Positions 35,757-38,101 of a DNA stretch of 55,275 nt are shown in pieces; position 1 is the stretch's first letter, and every line of letters starts with the position of its first letter. Under the pieces are notes generated by a model, which worked only from the letters and a program-made list of their open reading frames with translations, was not told the origin of the DNA and made no database searches. The stretch lies in the NCBI GenBank assembly GCA_013373515.1, contig JABXHR010000089.1, positions 1 through 55,275 of the forward strand. Reading direction: 5' to 3'. The position numbers and the translations under genes are program-made. This DNA comes from Gammaproteobacteria bacterium (lineage in GTDB: Bacteria > Pseudomonadota > Gammaproteobacteria > JABXHR01).

Positions 35757-36146
35757 ATGATTGAACAAGCGTATGAGCAATTAAGTCAGTACGAGTATAT
35801 GGACGATGAGCAGCTGGACTATTTCCGTCAGCGATTGATTGAAATGCGAGAGACCTTGCAAGCACGCATGACCTCTGCAGTCGATCGCCGTGAAAGACTG
35901 GCTGACGAAGCGGATCAAGCGACGCAAGATGAAAGTTACTGGATGTCCGTCCACCTAAAAGAGCGCGATGGCAAAATGCTGATGGACGTTGAAAAGGCCA
36001 TTCGCAAGCTCAATACCGGCGATTATGGGTATTGTGACGAGACTGGCGAAGAGATTGGTTTGAAGCGATTGATTGCCAACCCTGCTGCAGCATTGTCGGC
36101 AGAAGCAATGGAGCGCCGAGAAAGAATTCAGAAGATTCACGCTTAA
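35757..36146 (+). CDS. DksA/TraR-family RNA polymerase-binding protein lacking the Cys4 zinc finger
   Basis: The coiled-coil tip motif DxxDxA is present (DEADQA). The zinc-finger positions read C..T...S..A. Confidence 0.75.
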   Translation: MIEQAYEQLSQYEYMDDEQLDYFRQRLIEMRETLQARMTSAVDRRERLADEADQATQDESYWMSVHLKERDGKMLMDVEKAIRKLNTGDYGYCDETGEEIGLKRLIANPAAALSAEAMERRERIQKIHA

Positions 36147-36187
36147 AAACAAACGCTTAGGCGGACGTTCTAAAAAATTCAAAAATA

Positions 36188-36225
36188 TACTGTTCTTTTT
36201 GACAGTACTGTACTAAATTACAGTA
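36188..36225 (+). promoter_or_regulatory. Two overlapping LexA (SOS) boxes
   Basis: Box 1 is 36188-36207, TACTGTTCTTTTTGACAGTA. Box 2 is 36206-36225, TACTGTACTAAATTACAGTA. Both match TACTGT-N8-ACAGTA exactly and share 2 nt. They end 5 nt before the SD AAGGAG. Confidence 0.8.
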
Positions 36226-36242
36226 AAGCGAAGGAGAACAGT

Positions 36243-36749
36243 ATGTACCGCCACTTGCACCAATTTAGCCTTATTATCGTCGCCGCCTCATTGCCGGAAC
36301 TTATGGTCGGTTTGCAAGGTAGCGTGATCTCGGGATCGATTGCAGATTTTGCATTTGCGACCAGTGCCGCAGCAGCCATGCTTGGTTTGGTGTTCAAATG
36401 CAAAAACGTTAAAATCGTACTGCCTGCGCTGGTCGTTGGCCTGCTCCATGTGGTGCAGCCTCTACTCGAAGTTTTGATGATCGCTGCGATGCTGCAAGTC
36501 CTTGCCATCGCCATGCGCATCGCCAAGCCGCAATCGACATTTGGGCTGGTTCACAATTCAGTTGCGACGCTTGTCACATACTTTATTTTCAAACAAATCC
36601 TCACGATCGGGTTTGGATATCTTCACCTTAGTGTATGGGCGTTCACAGCGCTGTATTTGTTCACAATTTTAGGAGCTATTGCCTTGGTTTTGAACGTCTC
36701 CCACACCACACCACCTACAGCGGTGTGGCGCCCAGCACGCTCTTTTTAA
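36243..36749 (+). CDS. Orphan polytopic (about 5 TM) membrane protein, putative SOS-regulon member
   Basis: SD AAGGAG lies 6 nt upstream of the ATG. The protein is strongly hydrophobic and segmented, with no recognisable family motif. Confidence 0.65.
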   Translation: MYRHLHQFSLIIVAASLPELMVGLQGSVISGSIADFAFATSAAAAMLGLVFKCKNVKIVLPALVVGLLHVVQPLLEVLMIAAMLQVLAIAMRIAKPQSTFGLVHNSVATLVTYFIFKQILTIGFGYLHLSVWAFTALYLFTILGAIALVLNVSHTTPPTAVWRPARSF

Positions 36750-38101
36750 ATCAAAAAGAGCGTTGCCAACCCTAAGAAGCTCAAGAATCCAACCACATCG
36801 GTGACCGTTGTTAAGATCACTGCGCCAGAGAGCGCAGGGTCACTGCCGAATTTCTTCAACAACAACGGAATGCTCACACCCGCTAGGCTTGCAATCGACA
36901 GGTTTAGCGCAATTGCCGCAGCTATGACGAGTCCAAGCGCTAGGTCGCTAAACCAAACCATCGCCAGCAGCCCAATTGCACACGCCCATAGAAGGCCGTT
37001 AAAGAGCCCGACTGAGACTTCCTTGCGCAATAGGGCGAAAACATTGGAGCCATGTAATTGGCCAGTGGAAATCCCTCGAATGGTCAAAGTTAGCGTTTGA
37101 CTGCCCGAAATGCCGCCCATCGAGGCGACGATTGGCATCAGCACGGCAAGTGCCACGAGCTGCTCAATAGTGCCGCTGAAAACGTCGATCACCCATGCTG
37201 CGAGGATGGCGGTTAAAAGGTTGATACCCAGCCAAACCGCACGACGTTTGGCACTAGATACAGCGGGCGCAAAGAGATCTTCTTCGCCATCCATGCCGAC
37301 CCGGGCGAAAAGTGCCTCGTCAGCTTGTTCGCGAATGATGTCAACCACGTCATCAATTGTAATTCGACCGAGCAATGAGCCTTGTTCATCCAGCACCGGT
37401 ACTGAAATTAAATCATGGCGCTCAAACAAGCGAGCGACATCGTCCTCATGCCATCTGGCACCGACGGTGTCAAAATCGCGAAGAATGATTTCGTCGACTA
37501 AGGTATCGATTGGTTTTAATAGCAATTGTTCCAGTTTAAGAACGCCAATGAACTCTCCGTCAGCATCAATGACCATTAAGCAATCGGTGTGATCCGGTAG
37601 TTCGCCTTTTCGGCGCAGAAAACGTTGAACGACCTCTAGGGTGACGCCGGCCTTGACCACGATGGCGTCGTAACGCATCAATCGCCCTGCGTCGTCATCG
37701 TCAAATTGCATATTTGATTCGAATTGAACCCTGACGGCGTCATCCAAGCTATCGATAATCGATTGCGAGGTCTCGTCAGACAGCGGCTCAAGGAGCTCGA
37801 TAAGGTCGTCTGCGTCAAGGTCTTGCGCAGCCTGGGCAAGTTCCTCAGGGTCCATGTCAGCGACCAACGATGAGCGAACTTCTTCCGAAAGCTCTACAAG
37901 GACTTCGCCATCATATTCTTTTGGGATGCGCTCCCATATGGGCGTGCGAATTTCGCGAGGCAATCCCTCGATCAGGGATGCAAGGTCGGCGGGGTGTGAG
38001 GTGCGCAGTAATTCATCTAAGCGTTCAAATTGCCCAGTTTTGTAGAACTCAATAACGTCATCTTGACGAATTTCGTAGGAAATAGTGGTCTCAGTGCTCA
38101 C
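36746..38101 (-). CDS. mgtE: Magnesium transporter MgtE
   Basis: It has the MgtE N-domain, a CBS pair and C-terminal TMs with the GN..Q / D..G pattern. 451 aa. Confidence 0.92.
   Translation of the reverse strand: MSTETTISYEIRQDDVIEFYKTGQFERLDELLRTSHPADLASLIEGLPREIRTPIWERIPKEYDGEVLVELSEEVRSSLVADMDPEELAQAAQDLDADDLIELLEPLSDETSQSIIDSLDDAVRVQFESNMQFDDDDAGRLMRYDAIVVKAGVTLEVVQRFLRRKGELPDHTDCLMVIDADGEFIGVLKLEQLLLKPIDTLVDEIILRDFDTVGARWHEDDVARLFERHDLISVPVLDEQGSLLGRITIDDVVDIIREQADEALFARVGMDGEEDLFAPAVSSAKRRAVWLGINLLTAILAAWVIDVFSGTIEQLVALAVLMPIVASMGGISGSQTLTLTIRGISTGQLHGSNVFALLRKEVSVGLFNGLLWACAIGLLAMVWFSDLALGLVIAAAIALNLSIASLAGVSIPLLLKKFGSDPALSGAVILTTVTDVVGFLSFLGLATLFLI

What the first reader, a model, noticed from the sequence alone, without database searches (positions are those of the whole stretch)
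36188..36749. Two perfect, overlapping LexA boxes guarding an orphan 168-aa polytopic membrane protein
Seen directly: box 1 is TACTGTTCTTTTTGACAGTA (36188-36207) and box 2 is TACTGTACTAAATTACAGTA (36206-36225). Each matches the gammaproteobacterial LexA motif TACTGT-N8-ACAGTA at all 12 specified positions. The boxes share 2 nt and end 5 nt before a strong SD (AAGGAG, 36231-36236) and the ATG at 36243. A 12-position match is expected about 0.003 times by chance in 55 kb (55275 / 4^12), so two abutting copies are not chance. A perfect TTGACA hexamer sits inside box 1. Established knowledge: dual overlapping SOS boxes are the architecture of very tightly repressed, potentially harmful SOS genes such as colicin/lysis operons. 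Tandem boxes also control lexA, recN and ydjM. The product has about 5 hydrophobic segments and no motif I recognise. It lacks the His/Asp motifs of YdjM (DUF457) and is far larger than TisB- or DinQ-type peptides. Inference: it is an uncharacterised DNA-damage-induced membrane effector, for example a division inhibitor, a membrane-depolarising or persistence factor, or an envelope-remodelling protein. This is the best candidate in the window for an undescribed module.
Basis: partly seen in the sequence, partly recalled or inferred. Interest (0 to 1): 0.72.

Follow-up and report, generated by a model that had tools for sequence, protein, structure and literature searches.

The report
SOS-controlled orphan membrane protein gene
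Two perfect, abutting LexA (DNA-damage repressor) binding sites sit just upstream of a real, conserved gene for a six-helix inner-membrane protein with no detectable relatives; the control region copies that of E. coli ydjM, so this is a well-supported but fairly ordinary new SOS-regulon member of unknown function.

Summary
Two perfect TACTGT-N8-ACAGTA boxes (36188-36207, 36206-36225) end 17 nt before the ATG of a 168-aa hydrophobic ORF, and they are the only CTGT-N8-ACAG sites in 55 kb. The ORF is a real gene (dN/dS 0.066 against a 97%-identical MAG copy). It has no Pfam, NCBIfam, PHROG, PADLOC or PDB match and no homologue among 1.84 billion representative proteins. Synteny recovered one diverged orthologue (32% identity; neighbours about 65%), and it keeps both boxes at the same 18-nt offset. 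The same offset is found at E. coli and Salmonella ydjM and in front of lexA genes in metagenomes, and it is the preferred tandem spacing on viral contigs (26 loci, against 0, 0, 6 and 7 for offsets of 19-22). The protein is not a YdjM homologue. The TTGACA hexamer is not conserved. New here: in both orthologues, sequence upstream of the boxes pairs with the SD/AUG region, so transcripts entering from upstream are predicted to be translationally closed. Verdict: a LexA-repressed, tightly gated, lineage-restricted inner-membrane protein. Its function is unknown; a growth- or division-arresting effector is my favoured guess. It is a solid new member of a known kind and of moderate interest.

The parts
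36188..36207 (.). LexA box 1 (TACTGTTCTTTTTGACAGTA), 12/12 match to TACTGT-N8-ACAGTA
   Evidence: The orthologous box in L002 (1598-1617, TACTGTTCAAAATATCAGTA) has one arm mismatch.
36206..36225 (.). LexA box 2 (TACTGTACTAAATTACAGTA), 12/12 match. It starts 18 nt after box 1 and ends 17 nt before the ATG.
   Evidence: The orthologous box in L002 (1616-1635, TACTGTACTAAAGTACAGGT) keeps a perfect CTGT-N8-ACAG core and 7 of 8 spacer bases. The same 18-nt offset occurs at E. coli ydjM, at Salmonella ydjM (PMC8072944) and at metagenomic lexA genes.
36231..36236 (+). Shine-Dalgarno AAGGAG, 6 nt before the ATG
36243..36749 (+). Gene for the 168-aa orphan polytopic inner-membrane protein (predicted 6 TM, N-in/C-in). 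Residues conserved with the orthologue include SLPEL(16-20), D35, G66-L67-x-H69, E76, IAAMLQ(80-85), K117 and ALYLF(136-140).
   Evidence: dN/dS 0.066. No homologue or family. GC and GC3 match the neighbouring genes.
36185..36200 (+). 5' arm of the leader helix (AUAUACUGUUCUUUUU: flank, left arm and T-rich spacer of box 1), an anti-SD/anti-AUG sequence
   Evidence: (16 bp; p about 5e-5 to 7.5e-4 with the LexA arms held fixed).
36231..36246 (+). 3' arm of the leader helix (AAGGAGAACAGUAUGU: SD plus start codon). It is paired only in transcripts that begin at or upstream of about 36186.
   Evidence: The unpaired probability of the SD and AUG is below 0.1 for a transcript starting at 36147. The pairing is largely lost for a start at 36198.
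36160..36164 (+). 5' arm of the outer helix (GGCGG), pairing with CCGCC at 36248-36252 in codons 2-4. It is at the position aligned with the 11-bp L002 helix 1570-1580:1658-1668.
   Evidence: L002 stem p = 0.0012; RNAalifold keeps this helix in both sequences, with 2 compensatory pairs.
36248..36252 (+). 3' arm of the outer helix (CCGCC)
36737..36763 (.). Perfect 11-bp hairpin (ACGCTCTTTTT/AAAAAGAGCGT) spanning the stop codons of the convergent, 4-nt-overlapping gene ends of orf168 and mgtE. It is a probable bidirectional transcript end, although no U-tail follows the stem.
   Evidence: dG -22 kcal/mol on either strand; z -3.4 and -2.5.
35757..36146 (+). Upstream DksA-like gene (context). No terminator was detected between it and the boxes, so it is a possible source of read-through transcripts.
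   Evidence: The gene order dsbA - dksA-like - orf168 is conserved in L002.

Best explanation
This is a chromosomal SOS-regulon gene of an uncultured gammaproteobacterium. In undamaged cells, two LexA dimers occupy two abutting consensus operators (18-nt centre-to-centre) that cover the 38 bp ending 17 nt before the start codon, and they keep the promoter shut. After DNA damage, RecA-stimulated LexA self-cleavage frees both sites. The gene is then transcribed from a start inside or just after the operator and translated from a strong SD. The 168-aa product inserts into the inner membrane as a compact six-helix bundle (N-in/C-in, almost no soluble loops) carrying a few conserved intramembrane or periplasm-facing polar residues (E19, D35, H69, E76, K117). 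A second layer of control is predicted: any transcript that enters from upstream, such as read-through from the DksA-like gene, folds so that the SD and AUG are buried. Only operator-initiated (LexA-controlled) mRNA would then be translatable. Basis for each step: the boxes, their conservation, the coding constraint and the orphan status are shown by tool results. LexA binding, damage induction, topology and leader function are inferred. The action of the protein is inference only. Given the double high-affinity operator, the closed leader, the fast divergence and the purely membrane-embedded architecture, I favour a dose-sensitive membrane effector that slows growth or division, or alters envelope energetics, during SOS. 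I put the regulatory part at about 0.85 and this functional reading at about 0.4. The single confidence value given (0.55) is for the statement as a whole.
For: There are two 12/12 boxes and no other CTGT-N8-ACAG site in 55 kb. Both boxes, their 18-nt offset and their position next to the ATG are retained in the syntenic locus L002, where the protein is only 32% identical although DsbA and the DksA-like protein are about 65% identical. The identical design is found at E. coli ydjM, at Salmonella ydjM, which is damage-induced 2.1-fold with boxes at 14 and 32 nt (PMC8072944), and in front of bona fide lexA genes in metagenomes. The 18-nt offset is the preferred tandem geometry: 26 viral-contig loci, against 0, 0, 6 and 7 for offsets of 19-22. 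The gene is real: 20 synonymous against 4 non-synonymous codon changes and dN/dS 0.066, with composition equal to its neighbours. The hydropathy and positive-inside pattern indicates a membrane protein, and the AF2 model is all-helical. The leader helices sequestering SD/AUG occur in both orthologues through different sequence: z -5.8 and -5.0, stem p of 5e-5 to 1e-3, and two compensatory pairs. Overlapping SOS boxes give very tight, no-basal-level control in colicin operons (PMC2994835).
Against: There is no experimental evidence for LexA binding or damage induction. No convincing sigma-70 promoter was found by the consensus scan, and the start site is unknown, so the reading of the leader structure depends on an assumption. 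Only two independent orthologues exist, so the conservation and covariation evidence is thin. The same double-box design precedes lexA and ydjM, which are not toxic, so the operator alone does not argue for a harmful product. Known SOS membrane division inhibitors and type I toxins are small, single-pass proteins, unlike this 6-TM protein. The structure model is poor (pTM 0.34) and gives no functional clue.
Confidence: 0.55

Rival explanations
1. The LexA regulation is the same, but the product is a benign or protective envelope protein (a small transporter or channel, a metal- or proton-handling protein, or a membrane-repair factor). That would make it a non-homologous functional counterpart of YdjM. 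On this reading the leader structure only insulates it from dksA-like read-through, or is incidental.
For: The operator design is identical to that of ydjM, a non-toxic LexA-regulated polytopic inner-membrane protein of similar size (PMC6590174). The conserved intramembrane acidic, His and Lys residues are what one expects of a transporter or ion-binding site. Strong purifying selection and a stable core-genome location suit a housekeeping-type stress function.
Against: There is no similarity to any transporter, channel or hydrolase family. Divergence is very fast relative to the neighbours (32% against 65%), which is atypical for transporters. Two consensus operators plus a buried SD/AUG look like more control than a harmless protein needs.
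Confidence: 0.3
2. The palindromes are not LexA sites. They either bind another dimeric regulator or act purely as RNA hairpins (attenuator, terminator or leader structure) for the dksA-like/orf168 transcript.
For: Each box can form a 5-7 bp hairpin, and both boxes lie inside a highly structured leader. No LexA gene from this organism was seen.
Against: Both boxes match the 12 informative positions of the beta/gammaproteobacterial LexA consensus exactly. The MAG relative is a gammaproteobacterium. The same double box precedes true lexA genes and E. coli ydjM. In L002 box 1 carries an arm change that weakens its hairpin but keeps a recognisable half-site. No U-tract follows the hairpins.
Confidence: 0.06
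3. The main target of the operator is not the protein but transcription itself. SOS-induced convergent transcription through orf168 runs into mgtE, whose 3' end overlaps by 4 nt, and lowers Mg2+ transporter expression. Alternatively, bound LexA acts chiefly as a roadblock ending the dksA-like transcript.
For: The two genes are convergent and overlap, sharing one hairpin that lacks a U-tail. No terminator lies between dksA-like and the boxes.
Against: The ORF is under strong purifying selection at the protein level, and protein motifs are conserved at 32% identity, so the protein itself is selected. The downstream neighbour in L002 is unknown because the contig ends. The 11-bp GC/AU hairpin is likely to stop much of the transcription.
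Confidence: 0.04
4. The ORF is spurious, or is a remnant of a mobile element, prophage or bacteriocin lysis module.
For: It has no homologues. Double SOS boxes are typical of colicin operons (PMC2994835) and are common on phage contigs.
Against: dN/dS is 0.066. There is a conserved syntenic orthologue. Composition equals the neighbours. The flanks are core genes (resB, ccsA, dsbA, dksA-like, mgtE, cheV, degP) with no integrase or phage genes. There is no PHROG hit and no relative on viral contigs.
Confidence: 0.02

Closest known systems
E. coli / Salmonella ydjM (LexA-regulated inner-membrane protein, Pfam PF04307 YdjM/DUF457)
   Same: Two LexA boxes sit exactly 18 nt apart, the proximal one ending 14 nt (ydjM) or 17 nt (here) before the ATG. 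The product is a polytopic inner-membrane protein of 196 or 168 aa. The function is unknown in both cases. Both genes are chromosomal and monocistronic in appearance.
   Different: There is no detectable homology: BLASTP E = 8.7, hhalign probability 0.2%, and PF04307 hits YdjM at 2e-35 but not this protein even at E <= 1. In ydjM the distal box is degenerate (CTGT-N8-CCTA), whereas here both boxes are perfect.
SOS-induced membrane-anchored division inhibitors (Caulobacter SidA, B. subtilis YneA, S. aureus SosA, actinobacterial ChiZ/DivS)
   Same: They are LexA-controlled, membrane-located, lineage-restricted and fast-evolving, with no cross-family sequence similarity (PMC6851548, PMC13396833 and PMC4211646, listed). 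This is the main known class of orphan membrane SOS effector.
   Different: Those proteins are small and single-pass, often with a periplasmic or extracellular domain. This protein has 168 aa, about 6 TM helices and essentially no soluble part. No evidence of interaction with the divisome can be obtained here.
SOS-induced type I membrane toxins (tisB/istR-1, dinQ/agrB, hokE, symE)
   Same: They have a LexA box at the promoter, a hydrophobic inner-membrane product, and a primary transcript whose ribosome-binding site is buried in leader structure (the last point is from my own knowledge of tisB and dinQ). PMC11575346 and PMC9742991 list TisB as an SOS membrane toxin.
   Different: Those toxins are 18-70 aa peptides paired with an antisense or sRNA antitoxin. 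Here the product is a 168-aa polytopic protein, no antitoxin RNA was identified, and the closed leader forms only if transcription starts upstream of the operator, which is unknown.
Colicin operon operators (two overlapping SOS boxes)
   Same: Two overlapping LexA boxes bind two dimers and give very tight repression with no basal expression (PMC2994835).
   Different: Colicin operators are plasmid-borne and precede toxin, immunity and lysis genes. This locus is in conserved chromosomal core synteny and has no bacteriocin genes. From memory and not verified here, the colicin box offset is shorter (about 15 nt) than the 18 nt found here.
lexA autoregulatory operators
   Same: Metagenomic lexA genes (L013, L062) carry the identical TACTGT-N8-ACAGTACTGT-N8-ACAG double box 5-8 nt before their ATG.
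   Different: E. coli lexA uses a 21-nt offset. The regulated gene here is a membrane protein, not the repressor.

Membership tests
LexA (SOS) regulon, beta/gammaproteobacterial type | CTGT-N8-ACAG palindrome (consensus TACTGT-N8-ACAGTA) in the promoter region | tested here: met
   Two 12/12 matches at 36188-36225, and they are the only such sites in the window.
LexA (SOS) regulon, beta/gammaproteobacterial type | Box positioned to control the adjacent gene (within or next to the promoter, close to the start codon) | tested here: met
   Box 2 ends 17 nt before the ATG. The upstream gene ends at 36146 on the same strand, so orf168 is the only gene downstream of the boxes.
LexA (SOS) regulon, beta/gammaproteobacterial type | Box conserved in front of orthologues (phylogenetic footprint) | tested here: met
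   L002 keeps both boxes with the same offset and position although the protein is only 32% identical. This rests on a single independent orthologue.
LexA (SOS) regulon, beta/gammaproteobacterial type | LexA binding and RecA/LexA-dependent induction by DNA damage | not testable with these tools
   This needs EMSA or footprinting and expression assays.
LexA (SOS) regulon, beta/gammaproteobacterial type | The host encodes a LexA that recognises this motif | not tested
The relative L001 is labelled Gammaproteobacteria.
YdjM family (Pfam PF04307 / DUF457) | Match to the family HMM | tested here: not met
   No Pfam hit at E <= 1 for the window protein or at E <= 10 for PF04307 in the L002 protein. 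E. coli YdjM scores 2e-35.
YdjM family (Pfam PF04307 / DUF457) | Pairwise or profile similarity to E. coli YdjM | tested here: not met
   BLASTP E = 8.7. hhalign probability is 0.2%.
YdjM family (Pfam PF04307 / DUF457) | Double LexA operator at an 18-nt offset abutting the start codon (a regulatory trait, not a criterion of homology) | tested here: met
   CTGT at L127 4162 and 4180, against 36190 and 36208 in the window. Salmonella boxes are at 14 and 32 nt.
SOS membrane division inhibitors (SidA/YneA/SosA type) | Small single-pass membrane protein | tested here: not met
   The protein has 168 aa with 5-6 hydrophobic helices.
SOS membrane division inhibitors (SidA/YneA/SosA type) | LexA-controlled, lineage-restricted and rapidly diverging | tested here: met
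   (32% identity against 65-66% for the neighbours).
SOS membrane division inhibitors (SidA/YneA/SosA type) | Blocks division through FtsW/FtsI/FtsN; overexpression causes filamentation | not testable with these tools
   This needs genetics and microscopy.
Type I SOS toxins (TisB/DinQ/HokE/SymE) | Very small hydrophobic peptide (below about 70 aa) | tested here: not met
   The protein has 168 aa.
Type I SOS toxins (TisB/DinQ/HokE/SymE) | Leader structure that occludes the ribosome-binding site of the primary transcript | tested here: inconclusive
   SD/AUG-sequestering helices are predicted in both orthologues, but only for transcripts that start upstream of the operator, and the start site is unknown.
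Type I SOS toxins (TisB/DinQ/HokE/SymE) | Cognate antisense or sRNA antitoxin | tested here: inconclusive
   The only candidate is a chance-level promoter-like site antisense to the ORF, at 36694-36666. It was not followed further.
Colicin / bacteriocin lysis operons | Bacteriocin, immunity or lysis genes in a plasmid or mobile context | tested here: not met
   The neighbours are core chromosomal genes with conserved synteny, and there are no PHROG or viral relatives.

The most novel reading that the evidence does not exclude
The locus encodes a previously unrecognised class of SOS effector: a polytopic (6-TM) inner-membrane growth-arrest or persistence protein that is kept silent by a double consensus LexA operator and also by a leader that buries the SD and AUG in every transcript not initiated at the LexA-controlled promoter. 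It would be a protein-sized analogue of the TisB/DinQ logic, without an RNA antitoxin. Its apparent orphan status would reflect divergence so rapid that functional counterparts in other lineages cannot be seen by sequence search.
Probability: 0.2. Interest if true: 0.65.

Novelty: new member of a known kind. Interest (0 to 1): 0.45.

Why it matters
If confirmed, this adds a new and entirely uncharacterised protein family to the small set of membrane-embedded SOS effectors. That part of the DNA-damage response is poorly understood: even E. coli YdjM has no known function. The gene recreates the ydjM operator geometry in front of a non-homologous polytopic membrane protein. This suggests that 'abutting double LexA box plus small polytopic membrane protein' may be a recurrent functional module, not an E. 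coli peculiarity. The predicted transcript-origin-dependent translational gate is a simple, testable insulation mechanism. The motif is the one E. coli LexA recognises, so the whole cassette can be tested directly in E. coli even though the source organism is uncultured.

Tried and rejected
1. Homology searches found nothing beyond the protein itself. I ran Pfam, NCBIfam, PHROGs and PADLOC, PDB sequence profiles, word-indexed searches of 5.8 billion proteins with the single sequence and with the two-member profile, exhaustive phmmer over 1.84 billion representatives, and profile-guided scans of metagenome and viral contigs.
2. Structure prediction gave little. The single-sequence AF2 model is weak (pLDDT 69.6, pTM 0.34), and Foldseek against the PDB gave no hit with E <= 0.001, only generic helical matches. 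I treated that result as uninformative.
3. YdjM homology is rejected.
4. The TTGACA hexamer as the -35 element is rejected: it is not conserved in L002 and has no -10 partner.
5. I checked for an internal three-fold repeat of helical hairpins and found no signal (z <= 1.6).
6. I looked for further syntenic orthologues through more distant DksA-like hits (P0004, P0005, P0006). Their contexts are not syntenic.
7. None of the 120 metagenome loci carrying the same double box encodes a homologue.
8. A third LexA box in 18-nt register at 36224-36243 is rejected. It has a perfect right arm but a degenerate left arm (TAAAGC), and it is absent from L002.
9. I could not retrieve the Gillor et al. paper on bacteriocin SOS boxes.
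Full report
OBSERVATION. TACTGTTCTTTTTGACAGTA lies at 36188-36207 and TACTGTACTAAATTACAGTA at 36206-36225. The two boxes share the 2 nt at 36206-36207. AAGGAG follows at 36231-36236 and the ATG at 36243. Both boxes are 0-mismatch hits to TACTGT-N8-ACAGTA, and no other site appears even with 2 mismatches allowed. They are also the only CTGT-N8-ACAG cores in the 55,275-bp window. A single perfect 12-position match is expected about 0.003 times per window, so two abutting copies are not chance. The ORF at 36243-36749 (168 aa) begins at the first start codon in its frame.

THE GENE IS REAL AND LIES IN A CORE CHROMOSOMAL REGION. Its neighbours are resB, ccsA, dsbA and a DksA-like gene on the + strand, and mgtE, cheV and two degP-like protease genes on the - strand. 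Elsewhere the window carries polA, trpS, amtB, MCP genes and similar, with no phage or plasmid genes. GC and GC3 of the ORF match those of its neighbours. A Gammaproteobacteria MAG contig (L001) carries residues 38-168 at 97% amino-acid identity and 94% nucleotide identity. It shows 20 synonymous against 4 non-synonymous codon differences. By the Nei-Gojobori method dS is 0.237 and dN is 0.016, giving dN/dS of 0.066. That is strong purifying selection.

THE PROTEIN IS AN ORPHAN BY SEQUENCE. There is no Pfam or NCBIfam hit at E <= 1 and no PHROG or PADLOC hit. The word-indexed search of 5.8 billion proteins found only the protein itself. Exhaustive phmmer against 1.84 billion 50%-identity representatives also found only the protein itself.

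SYNTENY FOUND THE ONE DIVERGED RELATIVE. The closest orthologue of the adjacent DksA-like protein (P0003, 65% identity) lies on a 2.1-kb ENA contig, L002. Its gene order is ccsA - dsbA - dksA-like - X. X is at least 158 aa, is cut off by the contig end, and aligns with the window protein end to end at 32% identity (BLASTP 8e-10). The conserved blocks are SLPEL, GLxH, E76, IAAMLQ and ALYLF. DsbA in the same pair of contigs is 66% identical. The membrane protein therefore diverges about twice as fast as its neighbours, yet within a species-level comparison it is tightly constrained.

A two-sequence profile found nothing more in the 5.8-billion-protein collection, in metagenome contigs, in viral contigs or in PDB sequences. 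More distant DksA-like hits are not syntenic. At present the family consists of three sequences from two lineages.

THE BOXES ARE CONSERVED. In L002 the intergenic region has diverged, but it retains TACTGTTCAAAATATCAGTA (1598-1617, one arm mismatch) and TACTGTACTAAAGTACAGGT (1616-1635, perfect CTGT-N8-ACAG core). The 18-nt offset is identical, and the boxes end 21 nt before the ATG. The TTGACA inside box 1 is not conserved (ATATCA in L002). No promoter using it passes the consensus scan, so I regard it as coincidental. No convincing sigma-70 promoter could be assigned. The candidates are TATACT at 36186-36191 and TAAATT at 36214-36219; the latter is TAAAGT in L002.

THE DOUBLE-OPERATOR GEOMETRY IS A KNOWN, PREFERRED ONE. 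Its two boxes start at CTGT 4162 and CTGT 4180 of L127, so they are 18 nt apart, and the proximal box ends 14 nt before the ATG. The Salmonella SOS study lists ydjM with two boxes at 14 and 32 nt from the start and 2.1-fold induction (PMC8072944). E. coli lexA uses a 21-nt offset.

The genes downstream of these double boxes include genuine lexA (L013 and L062; Pfam LexA_DNA_bind plus Peptidase_S24). They also include several families of small proteins with no recognisable family, and phage genes. None is homologous to the window protein.

On viral contigs I searched with two copies of the 18-mer core ACTGT-N8-ACAGT, keeping 20 specified bases in each pattern. This gave 26 loci at an 18-nt offset, 0 at 19, 0 at 20, 6 at 21 and 7 at 22. 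The abutting 18-nt arrangement is therefore the favoured way to place two LexA dimers side by side. The window carries a textbook example in which both sites match the consensus.

Overlapping boxes in colicin operons bind two dimers and abolish basal expression (PMC2994835). But the same geometry also serves lexA and ydjM, so it does not by itself indicate a dangerous product.

THE PROTEIN. Hydropathy and charge distribution fit six transmembrane helices arranged as three tight hairpins. All the basic clusters would then lie on one side: R3/H4/H6, K52-K57, R92/K95 and R163/R166. This gives an N-in/C-in topology by the positive-inside rule, with almost nothing exposed outside the bilayer. In L002 the segment between the second and third basic clusters is 42 residues long, which supports two helices there. 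The polar residues conserved between the two orthologues are E19, D35, H69, E76, Q85 and K117.

The single-sequence AlphaFold model is all-helical but unreliable (pLDDT 69.6, pTM 0.34). Foldseek against the PDB returns nothing with E <= 0.001. YdjM homology is rejected: BLASTP E is 8.7 and hhalign probability is 0.2%, and PF04307 detects YdjM at 2e-35 but not this protein. There is no internal repeat signal.

A NEW FEATURE: A GATED LEADER. When folded as RNA, 36185-36200 pairs over 16 bp with 36231-36246. The first segment, AUAUACUGUUCUUUUU, comprises the flank, left arm and T-rich spacer of box 1. The second, AAGGAGAACAGUAUGU, comprises the SD and the start codon. For the 66-nt segment dG is -24.8 kcal/mol and z is -6.7. 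The helix persists in a 231-nt context. An outer helix, GGCGG 36160-36164 with CCGCC 36248-36252, extends it (z -5.8).

I held the LexA arms fixed and shuffled the remaining sequence. A stem at least as long as the observed one then arises with a frequency of about 5e-5, or 7.5e-4 if the SD/AUG side is also kept intact. Transcripts starting at or upstream of 36186 have the SD and AUG paired, with unpaired probability below 0.1. Transcripts starting at 36198 or later lose this helix.

L002 lacks this sequence but shows the same logic. GGUGUGCGUUA (1570-1580) pairs with UGACGCGCACC (1658-1668), an 11-bp stem with shuffle p = 0.0012. CUCU (1587-1590) pairs with the AGAG of the SD region (1646-1649). 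Overall z is -5.0. The 5' arm of the outer helix sits at aligned columns in the two loci, and RNAalifold keeps it with two compensatory pairs. Two sequences cannot prove a structure, and the transcription start is unknown, so this remains a prediction.

I see two readings. Read-through from the DksA-like gene may be translationally silenced, so that only LexA-controlled transcripts initiated within the operator are expressed; no terminator is detected between the two genes. Alternatively, the primary SOS transcript may itself be inert, as in tisB. Either reading implies unusually tight control.

MECHANISM AND RIVALS. Best-supported explanation: this is a LexA-repressed, DNA-damage-inducible gene for a lineage-restricted six-helix inner-membrane protein. 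I give the regulatory part about 0.85.

What the protein does is inference. The double consensus operator, the buried SD/AUG, the rapid divergence and the fully membrane-embedded architecture resemble the control logic of SOS membrane toxins and division inhibitors. I therefore favour a dose-sensitive effector that arrests growth or division, or changes membrane energetics (about 0.4). The main rival is a benign or protective YdjM-like envelope function (about 0.3). Minor rivals are a non-LexA or purely RNA role for the palindromes (0.06), a chiefly transcriptional role against convergent mgtE or dksA-like read-through (0.04), and a spurious or mobile-element ORF (0.02, effectively refuted).

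COMPARISON AND NOVELTY. In its working the locus resembles ydjM (operator geometry, product class). More loosely, it resembles SidA/YneA/SosA-type inhibitors and TisB-type toxins. It is a member of none of these families: the size, topology and homology criteria were tested and not met. As a type of system, namely an SOS-regulon gene with tandem boxes encoding a membrane protein of unknown function, it is a new member of a known kind.

A specialist would find it a clean, credible lead, not a surprise. Lineage-specific SOS genes are common, and the source organism is uncultured. In its favour, the cassette is directly testable in E. coli, and the leader gate is a neat hypothesis. I score interest at 0.45.

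Noticed in passing
window 36737-36763: A perfect 11-bp hairpin (ACGCTCTTTTT / AAAAAGAGCGT, loop AAATC) spans the stop codons of the convergent genes orf168 and mgtE, whose ORFs overlap by 4 nt. dG is about -22 kcal/mol on both strands, but no U-tail follows the stem on either strand. It is largely conserved in L001.
   Followed up: partly
window 35757-36146: The upstream DksA-like protein (129 aa; matches DksA_N and zf-dskA_traR) contains a single cysteine, so it cannot form the C4 zinc finger. It therefore resembles zinc-independent DksA2-type paralogues. Its closest relative is only 65% identical, and the next ones are at 39-45%.
   Followed up: partly
window 36224-36243: A third 20-mer in the same 18-nt register (TAAAGCGAAGGAGAACAGTA) has a perfect right arm, ACAGTA, overlapping the start codon, but a degenerate left arm. 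It is not a LexA box and is absent from L002. The right arm does contribute to the leader helix.
   Followed up: yes
L126:3171-3260, also L033, L035, L050, L093: A family of 54-62-aa proteins (MTREVRHNYP...LLLVFWIAMVPVSMWVGSAAGF) with a C-terminal hydrophobic helix lies directly behind double LexA boxes at an 18-nt offset (triple in L126). These are candidate TisB/DinQ-like SOS membrane peptides. They have no Pfam match.
   Followed up: partly
L037, L042, L100, L109 and L059, L068, L070, L089, L098: Two more recurrent families with no Pfam match sit behind the same double box. One is a 93-102-aa protein (MNQLIRILNDGDRETLEWLR...). The other is a 48-60-aa basic protein (MK[IV]RHI.SLDIWLLSKGN.VLYRGK.NPW).
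   Followed up: partly
L013:~1137 (- strand), L062:~6503 (- strand): True lexA genes (LexA_DNA_bind plus Peptidase_S24 domains) are autoregulated by the identical TACTGT-N8-ACAGTACTGT-N8-ACAG double box, placed only 5-8 nt before the ATG. E. coli lexA uses a 21-nt offset instead.
   Followed up: yes
viral contig loci L134-L171: Tandem LexA-core pairs on IMG/VR contigs occur at discrete offsets: 26 loci at 18 nt, none at 19 or 20, 6 at 21 and 7 at 22. Some contigs (L137, L144) carry two such pairs 60 nt apart.
   Followed up: partly
L046:881, L026:25, L016/L076/L101: On phage-like metagenome contigs the double box lies upstream of a terminase large-subunit-like gene (Terminase_6C), a GP88-family gene and a 240-aa protein with no Pfam match. 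LexA may therefore directly gate late or packaging genes in some phages.
   Followed up: no
window 36694-36666 (- strand): A promoter-like site (TTCAAA-17-TAAAAT) lies antisense within the 3' part of orf168. Its -10 element is kept in L001. The number of such sites is at chance level for the region (2 found against 1.5 expected), so its significance as a possible antisense RNA promoter is unknown.
   Followed up: no
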